From the IMG/VR virus record IMGVR_UViG_3300046463_000164: DNA of 64,000 bases; one strand, 5' to 3'. Within the stretch, counting starts at the first letter, position 1, and each line of letters starts with the position of its first letter. A model generated the notes under the pieces. The model was not told where the DNA came from. It searched no databases and worked only from the letters and a program-made list of their open reading frames with translations. This document shows positions 31,110 through 44,807 of the stretch, in pieces. Made by a program: the position numbers and the translations under genes. The DNA comes from a virus.

Positions 31110-31184
31110 TGGTCCCGCGTCAAGGAATCGAACCTCATTCTGACGGTGAACATACCGCCCATCCTACCAATAAACGAACGCGGG
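31110..31184 (-). tRNA. Atypical tRNA with 8-nt anticodon loop (undetermined)
   Basis: Perfect CCCGCGT/ACGCGGG acceptor, T arm, CCA; loop TATGTTCA. Confidence 0.65.
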
Positions 31185-31618: not shown

Positions 31619-31807
31619 CTACTTAGTTGCTGCTTGCTCGCGTGACTTATCGTTCGGGCCGCGCTTCTTTGCGGTATACAAACGCTTCGCTGGATCCTTG
31701 CCATGAGCAGGCTTAGTTTGCTTCGGACCCTTTTCGCCGCGCTTATGCATTGCCGTGATTTGCTTTGCTTCAGCGCGCTTCTTAACATTCTTACTTTGAC
31801 GAGACAT
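31619..31807 (-). CDS. Small, very basic hypothetical protein
   Basis: 62 aa, K/R-rich, AGGT RBS. Confidence 0.65.
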   Translation of the reverse strand: MSRQSKNVKKRAEAKQITAMHKRGEKGPKQTKPAHGKDPAKRLYTAKKRGPNDKSREQAATK

Positions 31808-31842: not shown

Positions 31843-32529
31843 TTACTCAAGCAACAAACACTTATACCGCTTATGATGATTGGCTCTGCCTTTGGCCACA
31901 TCACACATACGAGGAAAATTTAGACCTTGTTCCTTGCAGAACCTAGTCAAGTTTTCAACGATTACTTCATCGCCGTCTGGAGTTATTATCTTCCACAACT
32001 TTGATGCAGCTTTGACTATATTACTAATATTCCGCTTAGAATAATCCCTAATGGAATTTAGGTTAGATTTTCCAATCTTATCCTTATGCTCTTCCGACAA
32101 CTTCCTACCTGACATCGAGTCAGATATTTTCTTTTTGGTTTCTTCAGAATGACTCTTACCAAAAAGAGGATTGTTTTCGCCGGTTGCCGCCTCAGACAGT
32201 TTCTTTCGAGTTTCGGCTGAAGGATTCGAACAACCCTCTCCGCCGTCAGTTCCATTTGTTAACGGACCAAATCCCAAATCTCTGCGACCATATTCAGCAA
32301 TCCAGAAAACTTCCCACATCTCAGCATCATCTGCCGACAAATGCATATTCAAGAATTCTACAAGGATATACTTACCTTCACGTATAGCCTTTCTGATCTT
32401 CTTGTTTTTAAATGAATCTGGATTTCCGTCTTTGCCGCCAAGATGATCCCAAGCCCTTCTCTTAATACCCTTTCCTACATAAAATGGCTTGGGATCATCT
32501 TCAATTCTAAGTTGATATACATAAAACAT
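31843..32529 (-). CDS. GIY-YIG-type homing endonuclease with NUMOD3 repeats (start moved to ATG 32529)
   Basis: FYVYQLR..PFYVGKG..RAWDH, LTNGTDGGEG, HSEETKKKIS; AAGAGG RBS. Confidence 0.85.
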   Translation of the reverse strand: MFYVYQLRIEDDPKPFYVGKGIKRRAWDHLGGKDGNPDSFKNKKIRKAIREGKYILVEFLNMHLSADDAEMWEVFWIAEYGRRDLGFGPLTNGTDGGEGCSNPSAETRKKLSEAATGENNPLFGKSHSEETKKKISDSMSGRKLSEEHKDKIGKSNLNSIRDYSKRNISNIVKAASKLWKIITPDGDEVIVENLTRFCKEQGLNFPRMCDVAKGRANHHKRYKCLLLE

Positions 32530-32547
32530 ATTACCTCTTAAAATAAA

Positions 32548-32867
32548 GAACTCATGATACGCCAGCCTGGAGCACACCTCGGGGTCAATTCAATGATCAC
32601 CCACCACACTATACCCAGGATTTAAAAGATCGTTCAGACTTAATAACTTGAAAGTTGAGACTTAAACTTTAGAAATTTAATCTTTGAATCTTTAGCTTTA
32701 ATCGTTGAACTTTAAGAGTATTTGTATAGTCCCTTTCGGGCCACTATATTAATTGTCCTTGCGAGGATAAAGGTCGCAGTTCAATAGTCGATTTTGGCTC
32801 TCGCGGTTTAACGTCCAAGCGAGAAGGGACGCCGAAAGTTTTGAAGCGTTCAGCGTACCATGAGTTC
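32548..32867 (-). ncRNA. ~320-nt structured RNA with internal ~7-nt tandem repeats
   Basis: 16-bp terminal stem GAACTCATGGTACGCT/GGCGTATCATGAGTTC, internal hairpins, about 12 YYNAA(A)G-like units. Confidence 0.75.
32626..32715 (-). repeat. Degenerate 6-8-nt tandem repeat array (consensus near TTYAAAG)
   Basis: TTAAAG TTCAACG ATTAAAG CTAAAG ATTCAAAG ATTAAAT TTCTAAAG TTTAAG TCTCAAC TTTCAAG TTATTAAG TCTGAACG. Confidence 0.8.
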
Positions 32868-32886
32868 AGTTTTACTACAAAACTAC

Positions 32887-33519
32887 TTAGTCGGCCAGTT
32901 CAATCTCAGTCCGAGCATTAGACTCGCTCAGGACGAAATCAACTTCCGTCACAAAATCTTCATACTCACGACGAAGCACCGCGATTTGATCCACAATCTT
33001 CTTCGGGTCCAAAAGTTTGGCTTCTTGCTCGCCCTTAACTGCCTTCGCAATCAGGTCGTGCTGCTCTGCCGTAACTTTGCCCTTATCGTTACCGTATGCC
33101 GCCATCACACGCTTTTCAACGTCAGCTTCAACACGAGCATTCTGGTTGTTAGCCTGAATCGTAGCGCTGTTATACTGCGCTTGTAGCGTATTGATCAGAC
33201 GCTCGGTGTACTGGATCGAACTCTTACGTTCAATAGCTTCAGCAACCGTCATCGTCGCGCCGCTGATCGAAACTTGTGTTTTCGAGTTAGCAACGATAAT
33301 AGCTCGCTTAATGGCATCACGGCGCTTGATCAAATCCCCAACTTGCTGGTATGACGCTTGAATAGTCTTTTCCAGTTCATCCTTCGAAACCGCAGCATTC
33401 AGCGGGACTTCCTTGCTACCTCGCACAACAGCAACATAGGTTCCTTGAGCGATCGCATTTTGAATACGGCTGTCAAGGGTCTTCAGTTCAGCCAAACCGC
33501 GCGTTACAGTAATCTTCAT
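32887..33519 (-). CDS. All-helical coiled-coil protein of unknown function (DIP1984/septicolysin-like, by recall)
   Basis: ITVTRGLAELKTLDSRI, MTVAEAIERK, LLDP, VDFVLSESNARTEIE motifs; strong RBS; host-like codon use. Confidence 0.85.
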   Translation of the reverse strand: MKITVTRGLAELKTLDSRIQNAIAQGTYVAVVRGSKEVPLNAAVSKDELEKTIQASYQQVGDLIKRRDAIKRAIIVANSKTQVSISGATMTVAEAIERKSSIQYTERLINTLQAQYNSATIQANNQNARVEADVEKRVMAAYGNDKGKVTAEQHDLIAKAVKGEQEAKLLDPKKIVDQIAVLRREYEDFVTEVDFVLSESNARTEIELAD

Positions 33520-40828: not shown

Positions 40829-40848
40829 GAGCCTAAATTAATTTACAT

Positions 40849-41115
40849 ATGAAAGGAAACGAAATGAAACGTGATACCCGCAAGGCCATGAATTACCTGA
40901 AGCAACGAGTGGTGGACTTTTTCTTCGTCTACTTCGATCAGAAAACTTCCAGGAAGGTTTTCAACCGCCCTGAAATCGCTATCCCGATGATCAAAACGGC
41001 GATGTTGGATGGAAGTCCTAATAAGACTCGCCTAACCATCTACGCATCTGCCCTACGCGATGCTGTTGAGTACGAACGCCTACGCCTAGCCGACTCAGCA
41101 GAAACGGCAGGATGA
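40849..41115 (+). CDS. Hypothetical protein
   Basis: 88 aa, after CTAAATT motif at 40833. Confidence 0.7.
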   Translation: MKGNEMKRDTRKAMNYLKQRVVDFFFVYFDQKTSRKVFNRPEIAIPMIKTAMLDGSPNKTRLTIYASALRDAVEYERLRLADSAETAG

Positions 41116-41154
41116 GCTGCTAGTCACCCTACGTCACACTATAAGGAATAAAGA

Positions 41155-42660
41155 ATGACGGATATAGTTATAGAACGCGCTAATGCGTCCTTCATACGCG
41201 TGTACACTGATGATAACGGTATTCGTCAGGACATTGAAGATCACTTCTCGTATCAAGAACCCGGCTTCGTGAAAAATAAATGGACGAAGTGGAACGGACA
41301 AGTTCGCCTATTTAAGCGGCGCGGAAATACCCTACCATATGGCTGTCTACATATGCTGTTGGAACTAGCCAAGACAAACGGCTGGAGCTTCGAACTAGAC
41401 ACGGCTTTCAAGAACGATATCTCAGCGGTTAAGCGAGAGGAAATTGAAGACTGGGTCAAGACTCTGGATATACATACAGGCGGTATGCCTATTGATCCGT
41501 ATGACTATCAGATGGATGCTTTATATCTCGGAGTCCGGTTTGGTCGTTACGTTGCACTAGCGGCTACGTCTGCGGGTAAGTCTCTGATTGCCTATTTGTT
41601 GACTCGCTACTATGAAATGTTGAGCAATGAAGACGGTAAGAAGATTCTGATTATCGTCCCTTCTCAGATGTTGGTGGATCAGCTATATTCTGACTTCCAA
41701 GATTACTCTAGCGCCAACGGATGGAAGGTTCATGATATGTGTCACAAGATCATGGAAGGTAGACCGAAGAACGCAAATAAGATGATCTACATTTCGACAT
41801 GGCAATCTATCTATGAAGAAGATGAGGAATACTTCAAGCAGTTTGGTCGCGTCATCAACGATGAGGTTCACTTAGCCAGCGGCAAGTCGATCACAGCTAT
41901 CATGAATAACTGCACCAACGCTTATCAGCGTGTAGGTATGACCGGCACGCTTAAGGCTGAAAAGATTCACCCTATCTTGGTCATGAGCCTGTTTGGTCCT
42001 ATCAAGCGAGTAGTCACAACTAAGCAGTTGATTGATGCCGGGCGTGCCACGGAAGTCTATATCAAGATGTTCCAGTTGAACTACGATAAGACGGAATCTG
42101 AGTATGTCGCTGAATGCAGCTATCAAAAAGAGCTTGAGTTCATCATAGGACACAATCAGAGAAATAAGATGTTGGCTAGTCTTATGTCAAGCGTTAAGGG
42201 TAATACCCTTGTTATGTTTGATCGGCTAGAGCACATCGAGAATGTGAAAGCGTTTCTCGATAAGATTCCTCACGGCAAGAAGGTCTATGTCATCACCGGA
42301 GCGGTGGACCGTGACGAGCGAAACGACATTAAGGCTATTGCTGAGCAGGAAGATGGCGTAATCGTGCTAGGCACGCGCGGATGCGTTTCGACCGGGCTAT
42401 CTATTAAGAAGCTAAGAAACCTCATCTTCGCTCATCCTAGTAAGTCCATCATTACGATCCTTCAGGCAGTTGGTCGTATTATCCGACTCCATGATGAGAA
42501 GGGTAGCGCCCACGTCTATGATCCTATTGACAACTTCTCCTTCGACGGTAAGCCTAACTATGCACTAAAGCACGCATTGGAACGTTGGCAAATCTATAAG
42601 GATGCTGAGATGCCGATTGAGTTCAAATCAATAGCTATGAAGCCTCACGTAGAAGCATAA
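41155..42660 (+). CDS. uvsW: UvsW SF2 DNA/RNA helicase
   Basis: WNGQVRLF, PYDYQ, ATSAGKS, STWQS, DEVH, GMTGT, QAVGR. Confidence 0.95.
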   Translation: MTDIVIERANASFIRVYTDDNGIRQDIEDHFSYQEPGFVKNKWTKWNGQVRLFKRRGNTLPYGCLHMLLELAKTNGWSFELDTAFKNDISAVKREEIEDWVKTLDIHTGGMPIDPYDYQMDALYLGVRFGRYVALAATSAGKSLIAYLLTRYYEMLSNEDGKKILIIVPSQMLVDQLYSDFQDYSSANGWKVHDMCHKIMEGRPKNANKMIYISTWQSIYEEDEEYFKQFGRVINDEVHLASGKSITAIMNNCTNAYQRVGMTGTLKAEKIHPILVMSLFGPIKRVVTTKQLIDAGRATEVYIKMFQLNYDKTESEYVAECSYQKELEFIIGHNQRNKMLASLMSSVKGNTLVMFDRLEHIENVKAFLDKIPHGKKVYVITGAVDRDERNDIKAIAEQEDGVIVLGTRGCVSTGLSIKKLRNLIFAHPSKSIITILQAVGRIIRLHDEKGSAHVYDPIDNFSFDGKPNYALKHALERWQIYKDAEMPIEFKSIAMKPHVEA

Positions 42661-42906: not shown

Positions 42907-43652
42907 TGAAAAACTTCTTGAACAGAGTTAAACTCGATTTCGTGTACATGTCCGCATTTACTACAAGTCAACTTCTGCTCATAATGCAGATGAGGCATCG
43001 TAGAAAAGAATTTGTCATAAACTTCCTTCTTTTGCATTAGGGTTAGCTGATTCCAAAAATCTCTAAGTTGATCTCTAGTATATTCGTCAGCGTTATATAC
43101 ATTTTCGGCATCGAAGATAGATTCAATACAACTGATGATAGTTTCGATTTCATCGCTGGTATCCGCATCGGCGCTTTCTAGTACAGCAATGCTAGGATAG
43201 CGGAATTTAATACCAATGGGATCGGACACGATGATGGTATTTGTGTGTTCAGCTTCCTCGACAATCTTGAATTCACGAATGTCGATATTAACTGGCATTG
43301 TGTTGTTACATTTGACGGTAACGTCCCCTTCGTCAGTAGTGTTTACAATATCATTGGTGCATAGATATTGTTGCTCAATGATTTCGCCCACCGAATTCTG
43401 ACGTAGGCGCAGGAAGATTTCCTCAATTAGAAATAGCGGTAGTGAATCTACGTCCACATTTGGAGTTTGGCAGCAGGCTTGTACAATCTGCTTGATAGCT
43501 TGCATCTTTTCTCGTTCATCTTCCGCATCCTTGACCTGGATTAGAATGTCTTCCAATCCCACGGTGAAAGGAGTTAGCAAAATCTTTCCTTTAGGTAGAT
43601 ACTTGCTTTTGACTTCGAAAGTCTTTTTTGGGATGATAGGTAATGCGTTCAT
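42903..43652 (-). CDS. gp26: Baseplate hub assembly chaperone gp26
   Basis: LP..PF TVGLEDILI, IFLRLRQNSVGE, GIKFRYPS, FFSTMPHL, CSKCGH. Confidence 0.88.
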   Translation of the reverse strand: MNALPIIPKKTFEVKSKYLPKGKILLTPFTVGLEDILIQVKDAEDEREKMQAIKQIVQACCQTPNVDVDSLPLFLIEEIFLRLRQNSVGEIIEQQYLCTNDIVNTTDEGDVTVKCNNTMPVNIDIREFKIVEEAEHTNTIIVSDPIGIKFRYPSIAVLESADADTSDEIETIISCIESIFDAENVYNADEYTRDQLRDFWNQLTLMQKKEVYDKFFSTMPHLHYEQKLTCSKCGHVHEIEFNSVQEVFQ

Positions 43653-43805
43653 TTAAATCCTTCATTAATGGCGTCTGAAATAATTTAGGGCGATATTTAC
43701 TTCACATACTATGCTCGGTATAATATAGTTTTTTATAGTCGATGTATCCATTTACCTAAATATTCGGCTAAGAGCAATTCCCAATTTCAAAGGTAAAGTG
43801 ATGAA

Positions 43806-44807
43806 ATGAATAAAGCAATTCCTAAAATAAAAACGCCCACCGAGTCCTATACGAACAAGGACTACCCTGAGGCAATAGAATACGCAGCAAAGCAAAATAG
43901 CGTTTTTTGGCTCCACGATGAAGTAAAGGTTGAGAAAGATAAGCAAGACCTGCTAGTTAATATGATCCCTTCTGAAAAGCATGGGGTCATTTCCGTTTCT
44001 AGGCTGTTCACTAAGTATGAGTTGTTTGTGGGTGAAGAGTGGTGGGGTGATGTCGTCGCTAAACGATACCCGCGCCCTGAAATCGCACGTATGGCTAGTG
44101 CCTTCGCTTTCTTCGAACTCAACGTCCACGCCCCATTCTATGCCAAGCTAAATGAAGAGCTAGGTATCGCAACAGACGAATTCTACACCTCCTATGTCAA
44201 TGATCCGGTTCTACATGACCGAATGACCTTCATTGGAGCTATGCTAGAGAATGAAGATGAGCTACTATCGCTAGCAGCATTCACGATGCTTGAAGGCGCG
44301 GTGCTATATTCATCCTTTGCGTTTCTTAAGCATTTCCAGAGCAACGGTAAGAATAAGCTGATGAACCTAGTTCGCGGGATTAACTTCTCTGTACGCGACG
44401 AAAATCTACACTCCGAGGCTGGTGCTTGGCTATTCAAGAAAGTACGCGACGAACTTAAACTTACCAAAAAGCAACTACATGCTCTGGTCGCTAAGATCAA
44501 TGCATGCGCGCTAAAGGTATTTGATCATGAAAGTCGTATCGTAGATATGATTTTCGAACAAGGGGATATTCCAGGAATTACCTCAGATGATTTGAAAGCG
44601 TTCGTGAAGCACCGTATCAATTTCTGTTTATCTAACCTAGATATTGAGCCGGTATTTACTGCAGCAGAAACCGTGAATTCTATCGAAGAATGGTTCTACA
44701 AGGGAATCAACGACTTTCAATTCAACGACTTCTTCAGCGGCGTGGGCAATCAGTATAATCGTAATTGGGAAAAGACAGCATTTGTTTGGAAAGGTAAAGC
44801 GCTATGA
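43806..44807 (+). CDS. nrdB: Class I ribonucleotide reductase beta subunit
   Basis: FWLHDEV, ELNVH, EGAVLYSSF, RDENLH, DFF...Y. Confidence 0.95.
   Translation: MNKAIPKIKTPTESYTNKDYPEAIEYAAKQNSVFWLHDEVKVEKDKQDLLVNMIPSEKHGVISVSRLFTKYELFVGEEWWGDVVAKRYPRPEIARMASAFAFFELNVHAPFYAKLNEELGIATDEFYTSYVNDPVLHDRMTFIGAMLENEDELLSLAAFTMLEGAVLYSSFAFLKHFQSNGKNKLMNLVRGINFSVRDENLHSEAGAWLFKKVRDELKLTKKQLHALVAKINACALKVFDHESRIVDMIFEQGDIPGITSDDLKAFVKHRINFCLSNLDIEPVFTAAETVNSIEEWFYKGINDFQFNDFFSGVGNQYNRNWEKTAFVWKGKAL

What the first reader, a model, noticed from the sequence alone, without database searches (positions are those of the whole stretch)
32548..33519. Candidate new ribonucleoprotein system: coiled-coil protein gene followed by a 320-nt RNA with about 12 heptamer-like repeats
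Seen: 20 nt after the stop of the 210-aa helical protein (the stop lies in a CTAAGTA motif), an RNA begins whose ends form a 16-bp stem (32852-32867 with 32548-32563). Inside are GC-rich hairpins (TCTCGC/GCGAGA, TCC-TCGCAA-GGA, TATAGT-GGCCC-GAAA-GGG-ACTATA). An unstructured ~90-nt tract of 6-8-nt units follows (TTAAAG, TTCAACG, ATTAAAG, CTAAAG, ATTCAAAG ...), then AAATCCTGG, whose CCTGG pairs with CCAGG near the 3' end. The ~7-nt period is not a codon pattern and is not CRISPR-like (no spacers). Inference: each repeat binds one protomer of an oligomeric ring or filament of the adjacent protein, so the RNA acts as scaffold, ruler or antitoxin-like partner (compare TRAP or type III toxin-antitoxin repeats). 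Its position in an anti-defence island next to the tRNAs suggests a role in host takeover or counter-defence. The protein recalls DIP1984/septicolysin-like families, but this is from memory and unverified.
Basis: partly seen in the sequence, partly recalled or inferred. Interest (0 to 1): 0.88.

Follow-up and report, generated by a model that had tools for sequence, protein, structure and literature searches.

The report
Knotted heptad-repeat RNA with partner protein
Right behind a small helical-protein gene this phage encodes a real, doubly knotted 320-base non-coding RNA with a fixed row of about a dozen A-rich 7-base units; the same pair recurs in phage T5, hundreds of other phages, giant-virus bins and bacterial chromosomes, and its function is unknown.

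Summary
Window 32548-32867 (- strand) holds a 320-nt RNA with five parts:
- a 17-bp closing stem;
- an H-type pseudoknot;
- two variable hairpins;
- an unstructured array of about 91 nt with a 7-nt period;
- a conserved 3' hairpin domain, which forms a second pseudoknot with the junction after the closing stem.

A covariance model of the 3' domain hits exactly once, downstream of the homologous gene (phrog_1491; T5.085 in T5) and on the same strand. This holds in 61/61 phage sources and 77/80 bacterial loci. Searching with the RNA motif alone led back to the protein gene.

The AA peaks of the array sit at the same distances from the 3' helix in phages and in bacteria (-15 to -94). It is therefore a fixed-geometry platform, not a loose sponge.

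Only the first 86 nt of a sister subfamily are catalogued, as the orphan Rfam motif RAGATH-27. The window copy does not hit that model, and I found no paper on it. The element is unannotated in 440 T5-like genomes.

The protein is a DUF6847/DIP1984-like helical bundle and is predicted to self-associate. A protein-RNA particle is the most likely reading, but binding is untested and I could obtain no expression data. The anti-defence and toxin-antitoxin readings are not supported.

This scan has reported the same family before on other DNA.

The parts
32887..33519 (-). Gene for the 210-aa helical partner protein (phrog_1491; T5.085 family; distant DUF6847/DIP1984-like)
   Evidence: ORF. phrog_1491 E 4.5e-63. 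39% identical to the homologue in a T5-like phage. AF2 pLDDT 91. Best PDB match 3kdq.
32548..32867 (-). Whole 320-nt non-coding RNA, from the 5' strand to the 3' strand of closing stem P1
   Evidence: MFE z -4.0. Same architecture in 98 aligned homologues. No Rfam family at the gathering score.
32851..32867 (-). P1, 5' strand (17 bp with 32548-32564)
   Evidence: Read. P1 found next to the 3' domain in about 80% of 98 homologues. Terminal pair shows 6 pair types and is 89% paired. Duplex energy mean -23.0 against -14.7 for mismatched partners.
32548..32564 (-). P1, 3' strand, directly after the conserved GC of GGCUG
32843..32849 (-). Junction after P1; 5' strand of pseudoknot 2 (ACGCUUC)
   Evidence: Pairs with GAGGUGU at 32574-32580. 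Family-wide median is 7 bp against 4 bp for mismatched partners, with 58 distinct helix sequences. Window against L005 shows a U-G to G-U swap.
32798..32833 (-). H-type pseudoknot 1. Stem 1: 32827-32833 with 32810-32816. Stem 2: 32819-32825 with 32798-32804.
   Evidence: A pseudoknot of 11 bp or more at the same offset occurs in 73% of 73 homologues against 24% of shuffles. Stem sequences differ between lineages.
32725..32767 (-). Two variable hairpins (32756-32767 and 32725-32748)
   Evidence: Replaced by different hairpins at the same place in L005. Some cyanobacterial copies carry tRNA-like inserts here.
32624..32714 (-). Single-stranded array with a 7-nt period: about 12 strong A-rich units plus 1 weak one, in a fixed register with the 3' helix
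   Evidence: AA peaks at -15, -22, -29, -36, (-44 weak), -51, -59, -66, -73, -80, -87 and -94, the same in phage and bacterial sets, ending at -94. No internal structure.
32566..32623 (-). Conserved 3' hairpin domain. AAAUC, then outer helix 32615-32619/32566-32570; helix b 32608-32610/32571-32573; inner hairpin 32599-32602/32582-32585 with a 13-nt loop; 3' strand of pseudoknot 2 at 32574-32580.
   Evidence: Model R1 scores 57 bits, E 5e-11 on the window. Outer helix 98.9% paired in 94 distinct sequences, 125 double-change cells against 34 in shuffles, 0/500 shuffles as high.

Best explanation
The locus is a self-contained two-gene module: a small helical protein (T5.085 family) and a roughly 320-nt non-coding RNA.

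The RNA is probably transcribed as the 3' extension of the protein's mRNA. No promoter- or terminator-like site lies between the two.

The RNA folds into a compact core made of a long closing stem, two pseudoknots and a conserved 3' hairpin domain. From this core a fixed-length single-stranded loop of about 91 nt protrudes. The loop presents about 12 A-runs at exact 7-nt phases.

The most likely mechanism is a protein-RNA particle of defined stoichiometry. Several copies of the cognate protein, probably as symmetric dimers, would read the A-runs, which is the same logic as TRAP on its triplet array. The particle would act in RNA or translation biology linked to supernumerary tRNA gene arrays.

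Shown: the RNA structure, its conservation, the fixed array geometry and the gene-RNA linkage.
Inferred: co-transcription, protein-RNA binding, the array as the binding platform, and the link to tRNA biology.
For: - Model R1 of the 3' domain hits once, on the + strand, 200-600 nt after the gene in 61/61 phage sources, including 13 not in the seed. There is no other hit with E<0.1 in 449 kb.
- The same holds in 77/80 bacterial loci.
- Reverse test: the RNA motif alone gave 37 viral loci. 28 have the gene 196-555 nt upstream on the same strand, and one (L201) has it elsewhere on the same contig. Of the rest, two are chance matches and five have too little upstream DNA.
- Covariation supports the outer 3' helix, P1, pseudoknot 2 and pseudoknot 1.
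- The AA phases of the array are identical in independent phage and bacterial sets and stop at -94. The array is unstructured.
- The pair occurs in phages, giant-virus bins, cyanobacterial tRNA arrays and as a stand-alone locus in Firmicutes. The adjacent protein is therefore the one partner present in every setting.
- Self-association is supported by the model, not shown. Four copies gave score 0.52 against best control 0.01. That mark was reached by 20 of 30 proteins solved as pairs and 1 of 23 solved as single chains. The runs agree in at least 79% of contacts and the partner's pLDDT is at least 80.
- No promoter- or terminator-like site lies between gene and RNA.
Against: - There is no expression or binding data.
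- The protein family is near-neutral to acidic (pI about 5-7 in most of 42 members), which is unusual for a protein that coats RNA.
- The predicted interface is symmetric, so it gives no ring or filament that would match 12-13 sites.
- The base after each A-run differs between lineages (G, U or C). I did not test whether this tracks the protein.
- Translational knock-down of T5.085 had no fitness cost in T5 on a laboratory host ('Not Fit'; PMC11879866, supplementary files 8 and 16).
Confidence: 0.45

Rival explanations
1. The RNA works mainly on a universal cellular component such as tRNAs, the ribosome or a translation factor. The A-run loop is a scaffold or decoy for that component, and the neighbouring protein is a chaperone, enzyme or regulator rather than the array's ligand.
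For: - The pair sits among tRNA genes here (19 tRNAs), in many related phage loci and inside cyanobacterial arrays of 13-23 tRNAs.
- Some cyanobacterial copies carry tRNA-like inserts.
- Long tRNA arrays are induced by translational stress in Anabaena (PMC8421152).
- The protein is not basic.
Against: - Firmicute copies have no tRNA gene within 2.5 kb.
- I found no complementarity between the heptads and conserved tRNA loops when reading by eye; this was not tested formally.
- The strict gene-RNA linkage still has to be explained.
Confidence: 0.25
2. It is a cis-acting 3' UTR or processing element. It would stabilise or terminate the protein's mRNA, or direct processing of the polycistronic tRNA transcript, with no function in trans.
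For: - It starts 19 nt after the stop codon with no promoter-like site in between.
- In some loci a tRNA follows within about 30 nt.
Against: - 230-400 nt with two pseudoknots and a fixed-phase array of about 12 units is far more than stabilisers or terminators need.
- The architecture is kept while protein identity falls to 35-40% and across phages, bacteria and giant-virus bins.
- In L201 the RNA and the gene are not adjacent; the intervening DNA holds another ORF.
Confidence: 0.1
3. It is a toxin-antitoxin-like or counter-defence pair. The repeats would neutralise the adjacent protein, as in type III systems, or would be a decoy for a host nuclease.
For: - A repeat-bearing RNA lies next to a small protein gene.
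- The phage early/accessory region holds other accessory genes. One example is a 163-aa ORF that I read as a macro-domain protein from its sequence, without testing it.
Against: - The protein is a helical bundle, not a ToxN/AbiQ-type fold.
- The gene order is protein then RNA, and the units are 7 nt rather than about 36 nt.
- The pair is conserved across many Lysinibacillus and Bacillus species among housekeeping genes and occurs in giant-virus bins. This argues against a bacterium-specific defence target.
- I did not scan the PADLOC library.
Confidence: 0.07
4. It is a remnant or part of a mobile element: a group I intron, or cargo of the adjacent GIY-YIG homing endonuclease.
For: - A weak Intron_gpI match: 14.6 bits, E 0.52.
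- A GIY-YIG/NUMOD3 endonuclease gene starts 19 nt after the RNA.
Against: - The intron score is far below the gathering score of 50.
- The protein gene is complete: profile positions 4-209 of 211 are covered.
- The close relative L004 (93% protein identity) has the RNA but no endonuclease gene.
Confidence: 0.02

Closest known systems
RAGATH-27 RNA motif (Rfam RF03100; orphan candidate sRNA, function unknown)
   Same: In the sister locus L032 the 86-nt model matches the first 86 nt of the element: the P1 5' strand, the CGAAAAC junction and the pseudoknot-1 region. The score is 56.3 bits, E 4.6e-7. L032 shares the protein, the 3' domain and the array with the window.
   Different: - The Rfam model annotates one hairpin only.
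- It covers neither the closing stem's partner strand, nor the two pseudoknots, the heptad array or the 3' domain.
- It scores below its own gathering score (76.1) even in L032.
- It gives no hit at E<=10 on the window and none at gathering in 20 loci.
- No paper in the library contains the name.
TRAP and the (G/U)AG triplet array of the Bacillus trp leader (own knowledge)
   Same: Short purine-rich sites regularly spaced in single-stranded RNA, in a fixed number. This is the logic of a multivalent protein-RNA complex.
   Different: TRAP is an 11-mer ring of beta-strand subunits that reads triplets spaced 5-6 nt apart in a 5' leader. Here the protein is a helical bundle, the period is 7 nt, the sites are A-runs, and the array is a closed loop inside a knotted RNA. 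Binding is untested.
tmRNA-SmpB and Y RNA-Ro particles (own knowledge)
   Same: A stable RNA whose 5' and 3' ends form a closing stem, with pseudoknots or a large internal loop, a dedicated small protein partner, and a location near tRNA genes or tRNA-like modules in phages.
   Different: There is no tRNA-like acceptor/T-arm with CCA and no tag reading frame. No Rfam tmRNA or Y-RNA match falls on the element. The protein is unrelated to SmpB or Ro.
Type III toxin-antitoxin systems (ToxIN, AbiQ/antiQ; own knowledge)
   Same: A repeat-containing RNA encoded next to a small protein gene on mobile DNA.
   Different: Those repeats are about 34-36 nt, lie upstream of the toxin gene and are cut by it. 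The toxin is a beta-rich endoribonuclease. None of this holds here.
DIP1984 / DUF6847 proteins (PDB 3kdq, Corynebacterium diphtheriae; function unknown)
   Same: - Best structural match: Foldseek E 2.8e-3; VIA Z 10.0, rmsd 7.0, 150 of 152 residues aligned.
- Atlas DUF6847 cluster at TM 0.57/0.66.
- Weak Pfam hits in 12 of 42 members.
   Different: About 60 residues longer. No Pfam hit for the window protein itself at E<=0.1. The profile against the 3kdq sequence gives only E 0.067. Whether DUF6847 genes carry such an RNA was not examined.

Membership tests
RAGATH-27 (RF03100) | Covariance-model score at or above the gathering score (76.1 bits) | tested here: not met
   No RAGATH-27 match at E<=10 on window 32300-33100 and none at gathering on the whole window. 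Sister locus L032 scores 56.3 bits.
RAGATH-27 (RF03100) | Same 5' architecture: strand, CGAAAAC-type junction, then a hairpin/pseudoknot | tested here: inconclusive
   The window has P1, then AACGCUUCAAAAC, then pseudoknot 1 in the same order as L032. Homology is inferred transitively through the shared protein, array and 3' domain, not by direct alignment.
Heptad-array RNA family defined here (model R1 plus architecture) | 3' domain AAAUC-helix ... helix-GCUG directly before the P1 3' strand | tested here: met
   R1 scores 57 bits, E 5e-11 at window 32562-32633 (-).
Heptad-array RNA family defined here (model R1 plus architecture) | A-runs at -15 to -94 from the 3' helix with a 7-nt period | tested here: met
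   Window tract 32624-32714. Family profile. The window has A-runs at all 11 tested phases.
Heptad-array RNA family defined here (model R1 plus architecture) | Lies directly 3' of a phrog_1491/T5.085-family gene on the same strand | tested here: met
Type III toxin-antitoxin | ToxN/AbiQ-type endoribonuclease toxin | tested here: not met
   The AF2 model is an all-helical bundle with a small sheet. No such match among the PDB hits.
Type III toxin-antitoxin | Tandem repeats of about 34-36 nt upstream of the toxin gene | tested here: not met
   The units are 7 nt and lie downstream of the gene.
TRAP-type regulation | (G/U)AG triplets spaced 5-6 nt apart and bound by an 11-mer TRAP (MtrB) ring | tested here: not met
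   7-nt period with AA(R) sites. No MtrB/TRAP Pfam hit.
DUF6847 / DIP1984 (PF20935) | Pfam gathering-score match | tested here: not met
   The window protein has no hit at E<=0.1. 12 of 42 family members hit weakly, best E 0.0053.
DUF6847 / DIP1984 (PF20935) | Shared fold with 3kdq | tested here: inconclusive
   3kdq is the top hit, but Z 10 (rmsd 7.0, 150 aligned) lies within the range helical bundles can reach by chance. Atlas TM 0.57/0.66.
Group I intron (RF00028) | Covariance-model score at or above 50 bits, and an interrupted host gene | tested here: not met
   14.6 bits, E 0.52. The upstream gene is full length.

The most novel reading that the evidence does not exclude
A widespread, self-contained ribonucleoprotein particle that nobody has described, found in phages (including T5), giant viruses and bacteria. 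A doubly pseudoknotted RNA holds out a closed single-stranded loop with about 12 A-runs at exact 7-nt phases. The loop assembles a defined oligomer of DUF6847-like protein dimers. The particle would act on tRNA or translation biology, as an accessory of horizontally moving tRNA gene arrays.
Probability: 0.35. Interest if true: 0.9.

Novelty: categorically new. Interest (0 to 1): 0.8.

Why it matters
T5 has been a model phage for seventy years. Even so, 440 T5-like genome records leave this gap of about 360 nt essentially unannotated. Its partner gene carries a label ('tail fiber protein') that sits oddly with a gene in the tRNA region.

A large structured RNA with two pseudoknots, a fixed-phase repeat loop and a dedicated protein would be a new class of RNA-protein module. 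It is shared by phages, giant-virus bins, cyanobacterial tRNA arrays and Firmicute chromosomes.

It also offers a concrete handle on an open question: what the non-tRNA cargo of mobile tRNA arrays does. It is directly testable in T5/E. coli and in Bacillus.

The Rfam entry RAGATH-27 could be extended from 86 nt with one hairpin to the full molecule with its partner.

Tried and rejected
- Near-identity DNA search of the phage collection found nothing, so the phage has no close relative in GenBank.
- Rfam gave no family at gathering on the window or on 20 loci. RNase P, tmRNA, Y RNA, 6S, ROOL and GOLLD gave no match on the element even at E<=10.
- I considered that AAAUCC...GGCU resembles helix P4 of RNase P RNA (from memory). 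I rejected it because the topology is wrong (a local hairpin, not a long-range helix) and there is no covariance-model hit.
- I considered the units as RNase E sites or Hfq (ARN) sites (from memory). I set this aside because the pair also occurs in Firmicutes and giant-virus bins, and the period is 7, not 3.
- I considered the units as complements or mimics of the 7-nt anticodon or T loops. Reading by eye showed no consistent match.
- Internal pairing of the array found no covarying diagonal.
- My first DNA pattern was off by one base and returned mostly chance matches. It was corrected.
- PDB sequence searches found nothing significant, and NCBIfam found nothing.
- Literature searches for T5.085, RAGATH-27, DIP1984/DUF6847 and T5 non-coding RNA found no description of the element.
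- PMC5737381 holds no text on RAGATH-27 and no supplement is held for it.
- I did not attempt a test of co-evolution between the protein and the heptad type.

Full report
THE LOCUS

The window comes from a tRNA-rich lytic phage: 19 tRNA genes, all on the - strand. It has no close relative in GenBank phages.

The finding covers the 210-aa ORF 32887-33519 (-) and the 320 nt behind it. The next ORF downstream (31843-32529, start MFYVYQL) is a free-standing GIY-YIG/NUMOD3 homing endonuclease. The 244-aa GTG-started version of that ORF, which overlaps the RNA, is a listing artefact.

The closing stem P1 is 17 bp, 32851-32867 with 32548-32564. The element folds better than all 100 dinucleotide shuffles (z = -4.0).

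The repeat tract has a strong 7-nt period. The autocorrelation of A at lag 7 is 0.30 and at lag 14 is 0.23, against -0.08 in coding sequence. The tract has no structure of its own: MFE z = -0.5 and no covarying diagonals.

IS IT CONSERVED WITH THE GENE?

The protein is phrog_1491 (E 4.5e-63). tblastn finds it in 743 phage records, from Salmonella, Escherichia, Pseudomonas, Vibrio, Bacillus and other hosts.

A distant blastn of the RNA hit unannotated gaps right behind homologous genes in Seunavirus and T5-like phages. Those genes are 36-39% identical to the window protein.

I fetched 80 viral loci and built covariance model R1 of the 3' domain. It hits exactly once in each of 61 sources, always on the gene's strand and 200-600 nt after the stop. 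Thirteen of those loci were not in the seed. No other hit below E 0.1 appears in 449 kb.

An independent set of 80 bacterial loci gave 77 such hits. Two of the three misses are truncated loci.

For the reverse test I searched viral contigs with an RNA-only pattern and got 37 loci:
- 28 have the gene 196-555 nt upstream on the same strand.
- Two are chance matches in GC-rich coding DNA.
- One (L201) has another ORF in between but carries the protein gene elsewhere on the same 61-kb contig.
- The rest lacked upstream sequence.

ANATOMY

The parts, from 5' to 3' in window coordinates, are:
- P1.
- A junction (AACGCUUCAAAAC here; CGAAAAC-type in most relatives).
- H-type pseudoknot 1: stem 1 is 32827-32833 with 32810-32816, and stem 2 is 32819-32825 with 32798-32804.
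- Two variable hairpins.
- The array, 32624-32714.
- AAAUC.
- The 3' hairpin domain: outer helix 32615-32619/32566-32570, helix b, and an inner hairpin with a 13-nt loop.
- GC, then the P1 3' strand.

Evidence for each helix:
- The outer helix is 98.9% paired in 94 distinct sequences. It has 125 double-change cells against 34 in shuffles, 0 of 500 shuffles reach this, and slid controls collapse. My first seed was chosen on pairing, so one search is circular for percent paired. The model-aligned set is less so, but it still leans to the structure.
- P1's terminal pair shows six pair types. P1 duplex energies average -23.0 against -14.7 kcal/mol for mismatched partners.
- Pseudoknot 1 reaches 11 bp or more in 73% of 73 sequences against 24% of shuffles, at a constant offset.
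- A second pseudoknot joins the junction to the 3' side of the 3' domain. The median is 7 bp against 4 bp for mismatched partners, 7 bp or more occurs in 53% against 10%, and there are 58 different helix sequences. In the window this is ACGCUUC (32843-32849) with GAGGUGU (32574-32580). L005 carries a U-G to G-U swap there.

THE ARRAY

I aligned the sequences without gaps on the 3' helix. The A-runs then peak at -15, -22, -29, -36, (-44, weak), -51, -59, -66, -73, -80, -87 and -94. The peaks are the same in 48 phage and 50 bacterial sequences, and the signal stops at -94.

The number and phase of the units are therefore fixed while protein identity falls to 35-40%. The unit reads roughly AA(R)-U-N-U-Y. 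The base after the A-run is G in most lineages and U or C in some.

A fixed-geometry single-stranded loop anchored at both ends in a knotted core argues for a defined complex. It argues against a generic sponge.

WHAT IS KNOWN

- No Rfam family reaches its gathering score on the window or on 20 loci.
- With permissive thresholds, RAGATH-27 (RF03100, 86 nt, one annotated hairpin) matches the first 86 nt of the element in sister locus L032. The score is 56.3 bits against a gathering score of 76.1, E 4.6e-7. That lead came from earlier reports of this scan, and I verified it.
- The window copy gives no such hit.
- No paper in the library contains 'RAGATH-27' or 'T5.085'.
- In T5 the element fills the gap between T5.085 (annotated 'tail fiber protein', 43505-44143) and a promoter at 43067-43141.
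- That gap is essentially unannotated in 440 T5-like records: no RNA feature, and only a few records call short hypothetical ORFs or a promoter there.
- T5.085 was 'Not Fit' in CRISPRi-ART and its function was classed unknown (PMC11879866 supplements).

THE PROTEIN

- AF2 gives a confident model (pLDDT 91): long helices with a small four-stranded sheet at one end.
- The invariant residues are N78, the run M90-E97, K99, L197 and N201.
- The best structural match is 3kdq, an uncharacterised C. diphtheriae protein (Foldseek E 2.8e-3; VIA Z 10.0, rmsd 7.0, 150 aligned).
- DUF6847 appears weakly in Pfam and in the Atlas at TM 0.57/0.66.
- The family is near-neutral, pI about 5-7.
- Four copies co-folded with score 0.52 against best control 0.01. 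That mark was reached by 20 of 30 proteins solved as pairs and 1 of 23 solved as single chains. The runs agree in at least 79% of contacts and the partner's pLDDT is at least 80. The interface is symmetric, along the long helices. This supports self-association but does not show it.

CONTEXT

- Besides phages, the pair lies inside cyanobacterial arrays of 13-23 tRNA genes. These are the horizontally moving 'L-arrays', which in Anabaena are induced by translational stress (PMC8421152). That paper does not mention this RNA.
- In Bacillus, Lysinibacillus and Brevibacillus the pair stands alone among housekeeping genes: a methyltransferase, permeases, a subtilase and an S-layer protein.
- Four of the motif-only hits are on giant-virus metagenome bins.

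The only partner common to all these settings is the adjacent protein, apart from the universal translation apparatus.

INTERPRETATION

The best-supported reading is a self-contained protein-RNA module whose array is a multivalent platform, most simply for the cognate protein. I put this at about 0.45.

Rivals:
- The array binds a universal cellular component, with the protein as an accessory (0.25).
- A purely cis-acting 3' UTR or processing element (0.10).
- A toxin-antitoxin or counter-defence pair (0.07).
- An intron or homing-endonuclease remnant (0.02). The last is refuted by L004, which has the RNA but not the endonuclease.

VERDICT

This is a real, widespread and essentially undescribed RNA-protein module. 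Only an 86-nt fragment of a sister subfamily is catalogued, and that as an orphan motif. This scan has reported the same family several times on other genomes. My independent tests agree with those reports. They add the fixed-phase layout of the array in two independent collections, the reverse (RNA-first) linkage test, and the stand-alone Firmicute context.

Noticed in passing
window 31843-32529 (-): A free-standing GIY-YIG + NUMOD3 homing endonuclease gene starts 19 nt after the RNA. The close relative L004 (93% identical partner protein) lacks it and runs from the RNA straight to the 62-aa ORF that sits at 31619-31807 in the window. This is a presence/absence polymorphism typical of homing.
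   Followed up: partly
window 31110-31184 (-): ARAGORN calls a tRNA-like gene with an undetermined two-base anticodon ('gt'). Rfam's tRNA model does not report it at gathering, so it may be a degenerate or unusual tRNA.
   Followed up: no
L099, L106, L126, L128, L140, L161, L163 (cyanobacterial loci), variable region of the RNA: The region between pseudoknot 1 and the array contains tRNA-like segments with D-arm- and T-arm-type sequences. An example is GGUUCGAUUCC followed by an acceptor-like strand. A tRNA or tRNA mimic seems to be inserted in the RNA.
   Followed up: no
L178, L195, L197, L205 (IMG/VR contigs named GVMAG): The RNA 3' motif and the partner gene (36-42% identity where full length; only a C-terminal fragment was seen in L205) occur on giant-virus metagenome bins. 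The module therefore also occurs on contigs binned as giant viruses of eukaryotes.
   Followed up: partly
L201 (IMG/VR 3300028591_000236): Here the RNA has a hairpin inserted in the array and is preceded by an unrelated ORF instead of the partner gene. The partner gene lies elsewhere on the same 61-kb contig (55174-55794, - strand); my estimate of about 2.3 kb away on the same strand is a guess, because L201's position in the contig was not reported. This is the only case seen where the two are not adjacent.
   Followed up: partly
L055:2645-2732 and L045:4607-4674; L036:1415-1691: Other catalogued RNAs sit close to the module in related phages. A skipping-rope RNA (61 bits) lies just upstream of the partner gene, an int-alpA RNA lies downstream, and a group I intron (64.8 bits) is nearby.
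   Followed up: no
L011 and L014 (IMG/VR 3300024999_000029, 349 kb): One 349-kb contig carries two copies of the gene-plus-RNA module about 157 kb apart.
   Followed up: no
NC_005859 (T5) 40848-41566: The T5 record annotates a 719-nt 'RNAX, stable RNA with unknown functions' next to tRNA-Arg, about 1.6 kb from the element. It does not annotate the element itself.
   Followed up: no
L088:4158-5054 (Brevibacillus porteri): A weak AbiEii-type nucleotidyltransferase gene (E 1.6e-6) lies about 0.8 kb downstream of the module. I saw it in this one genus only.
   Followed up: no
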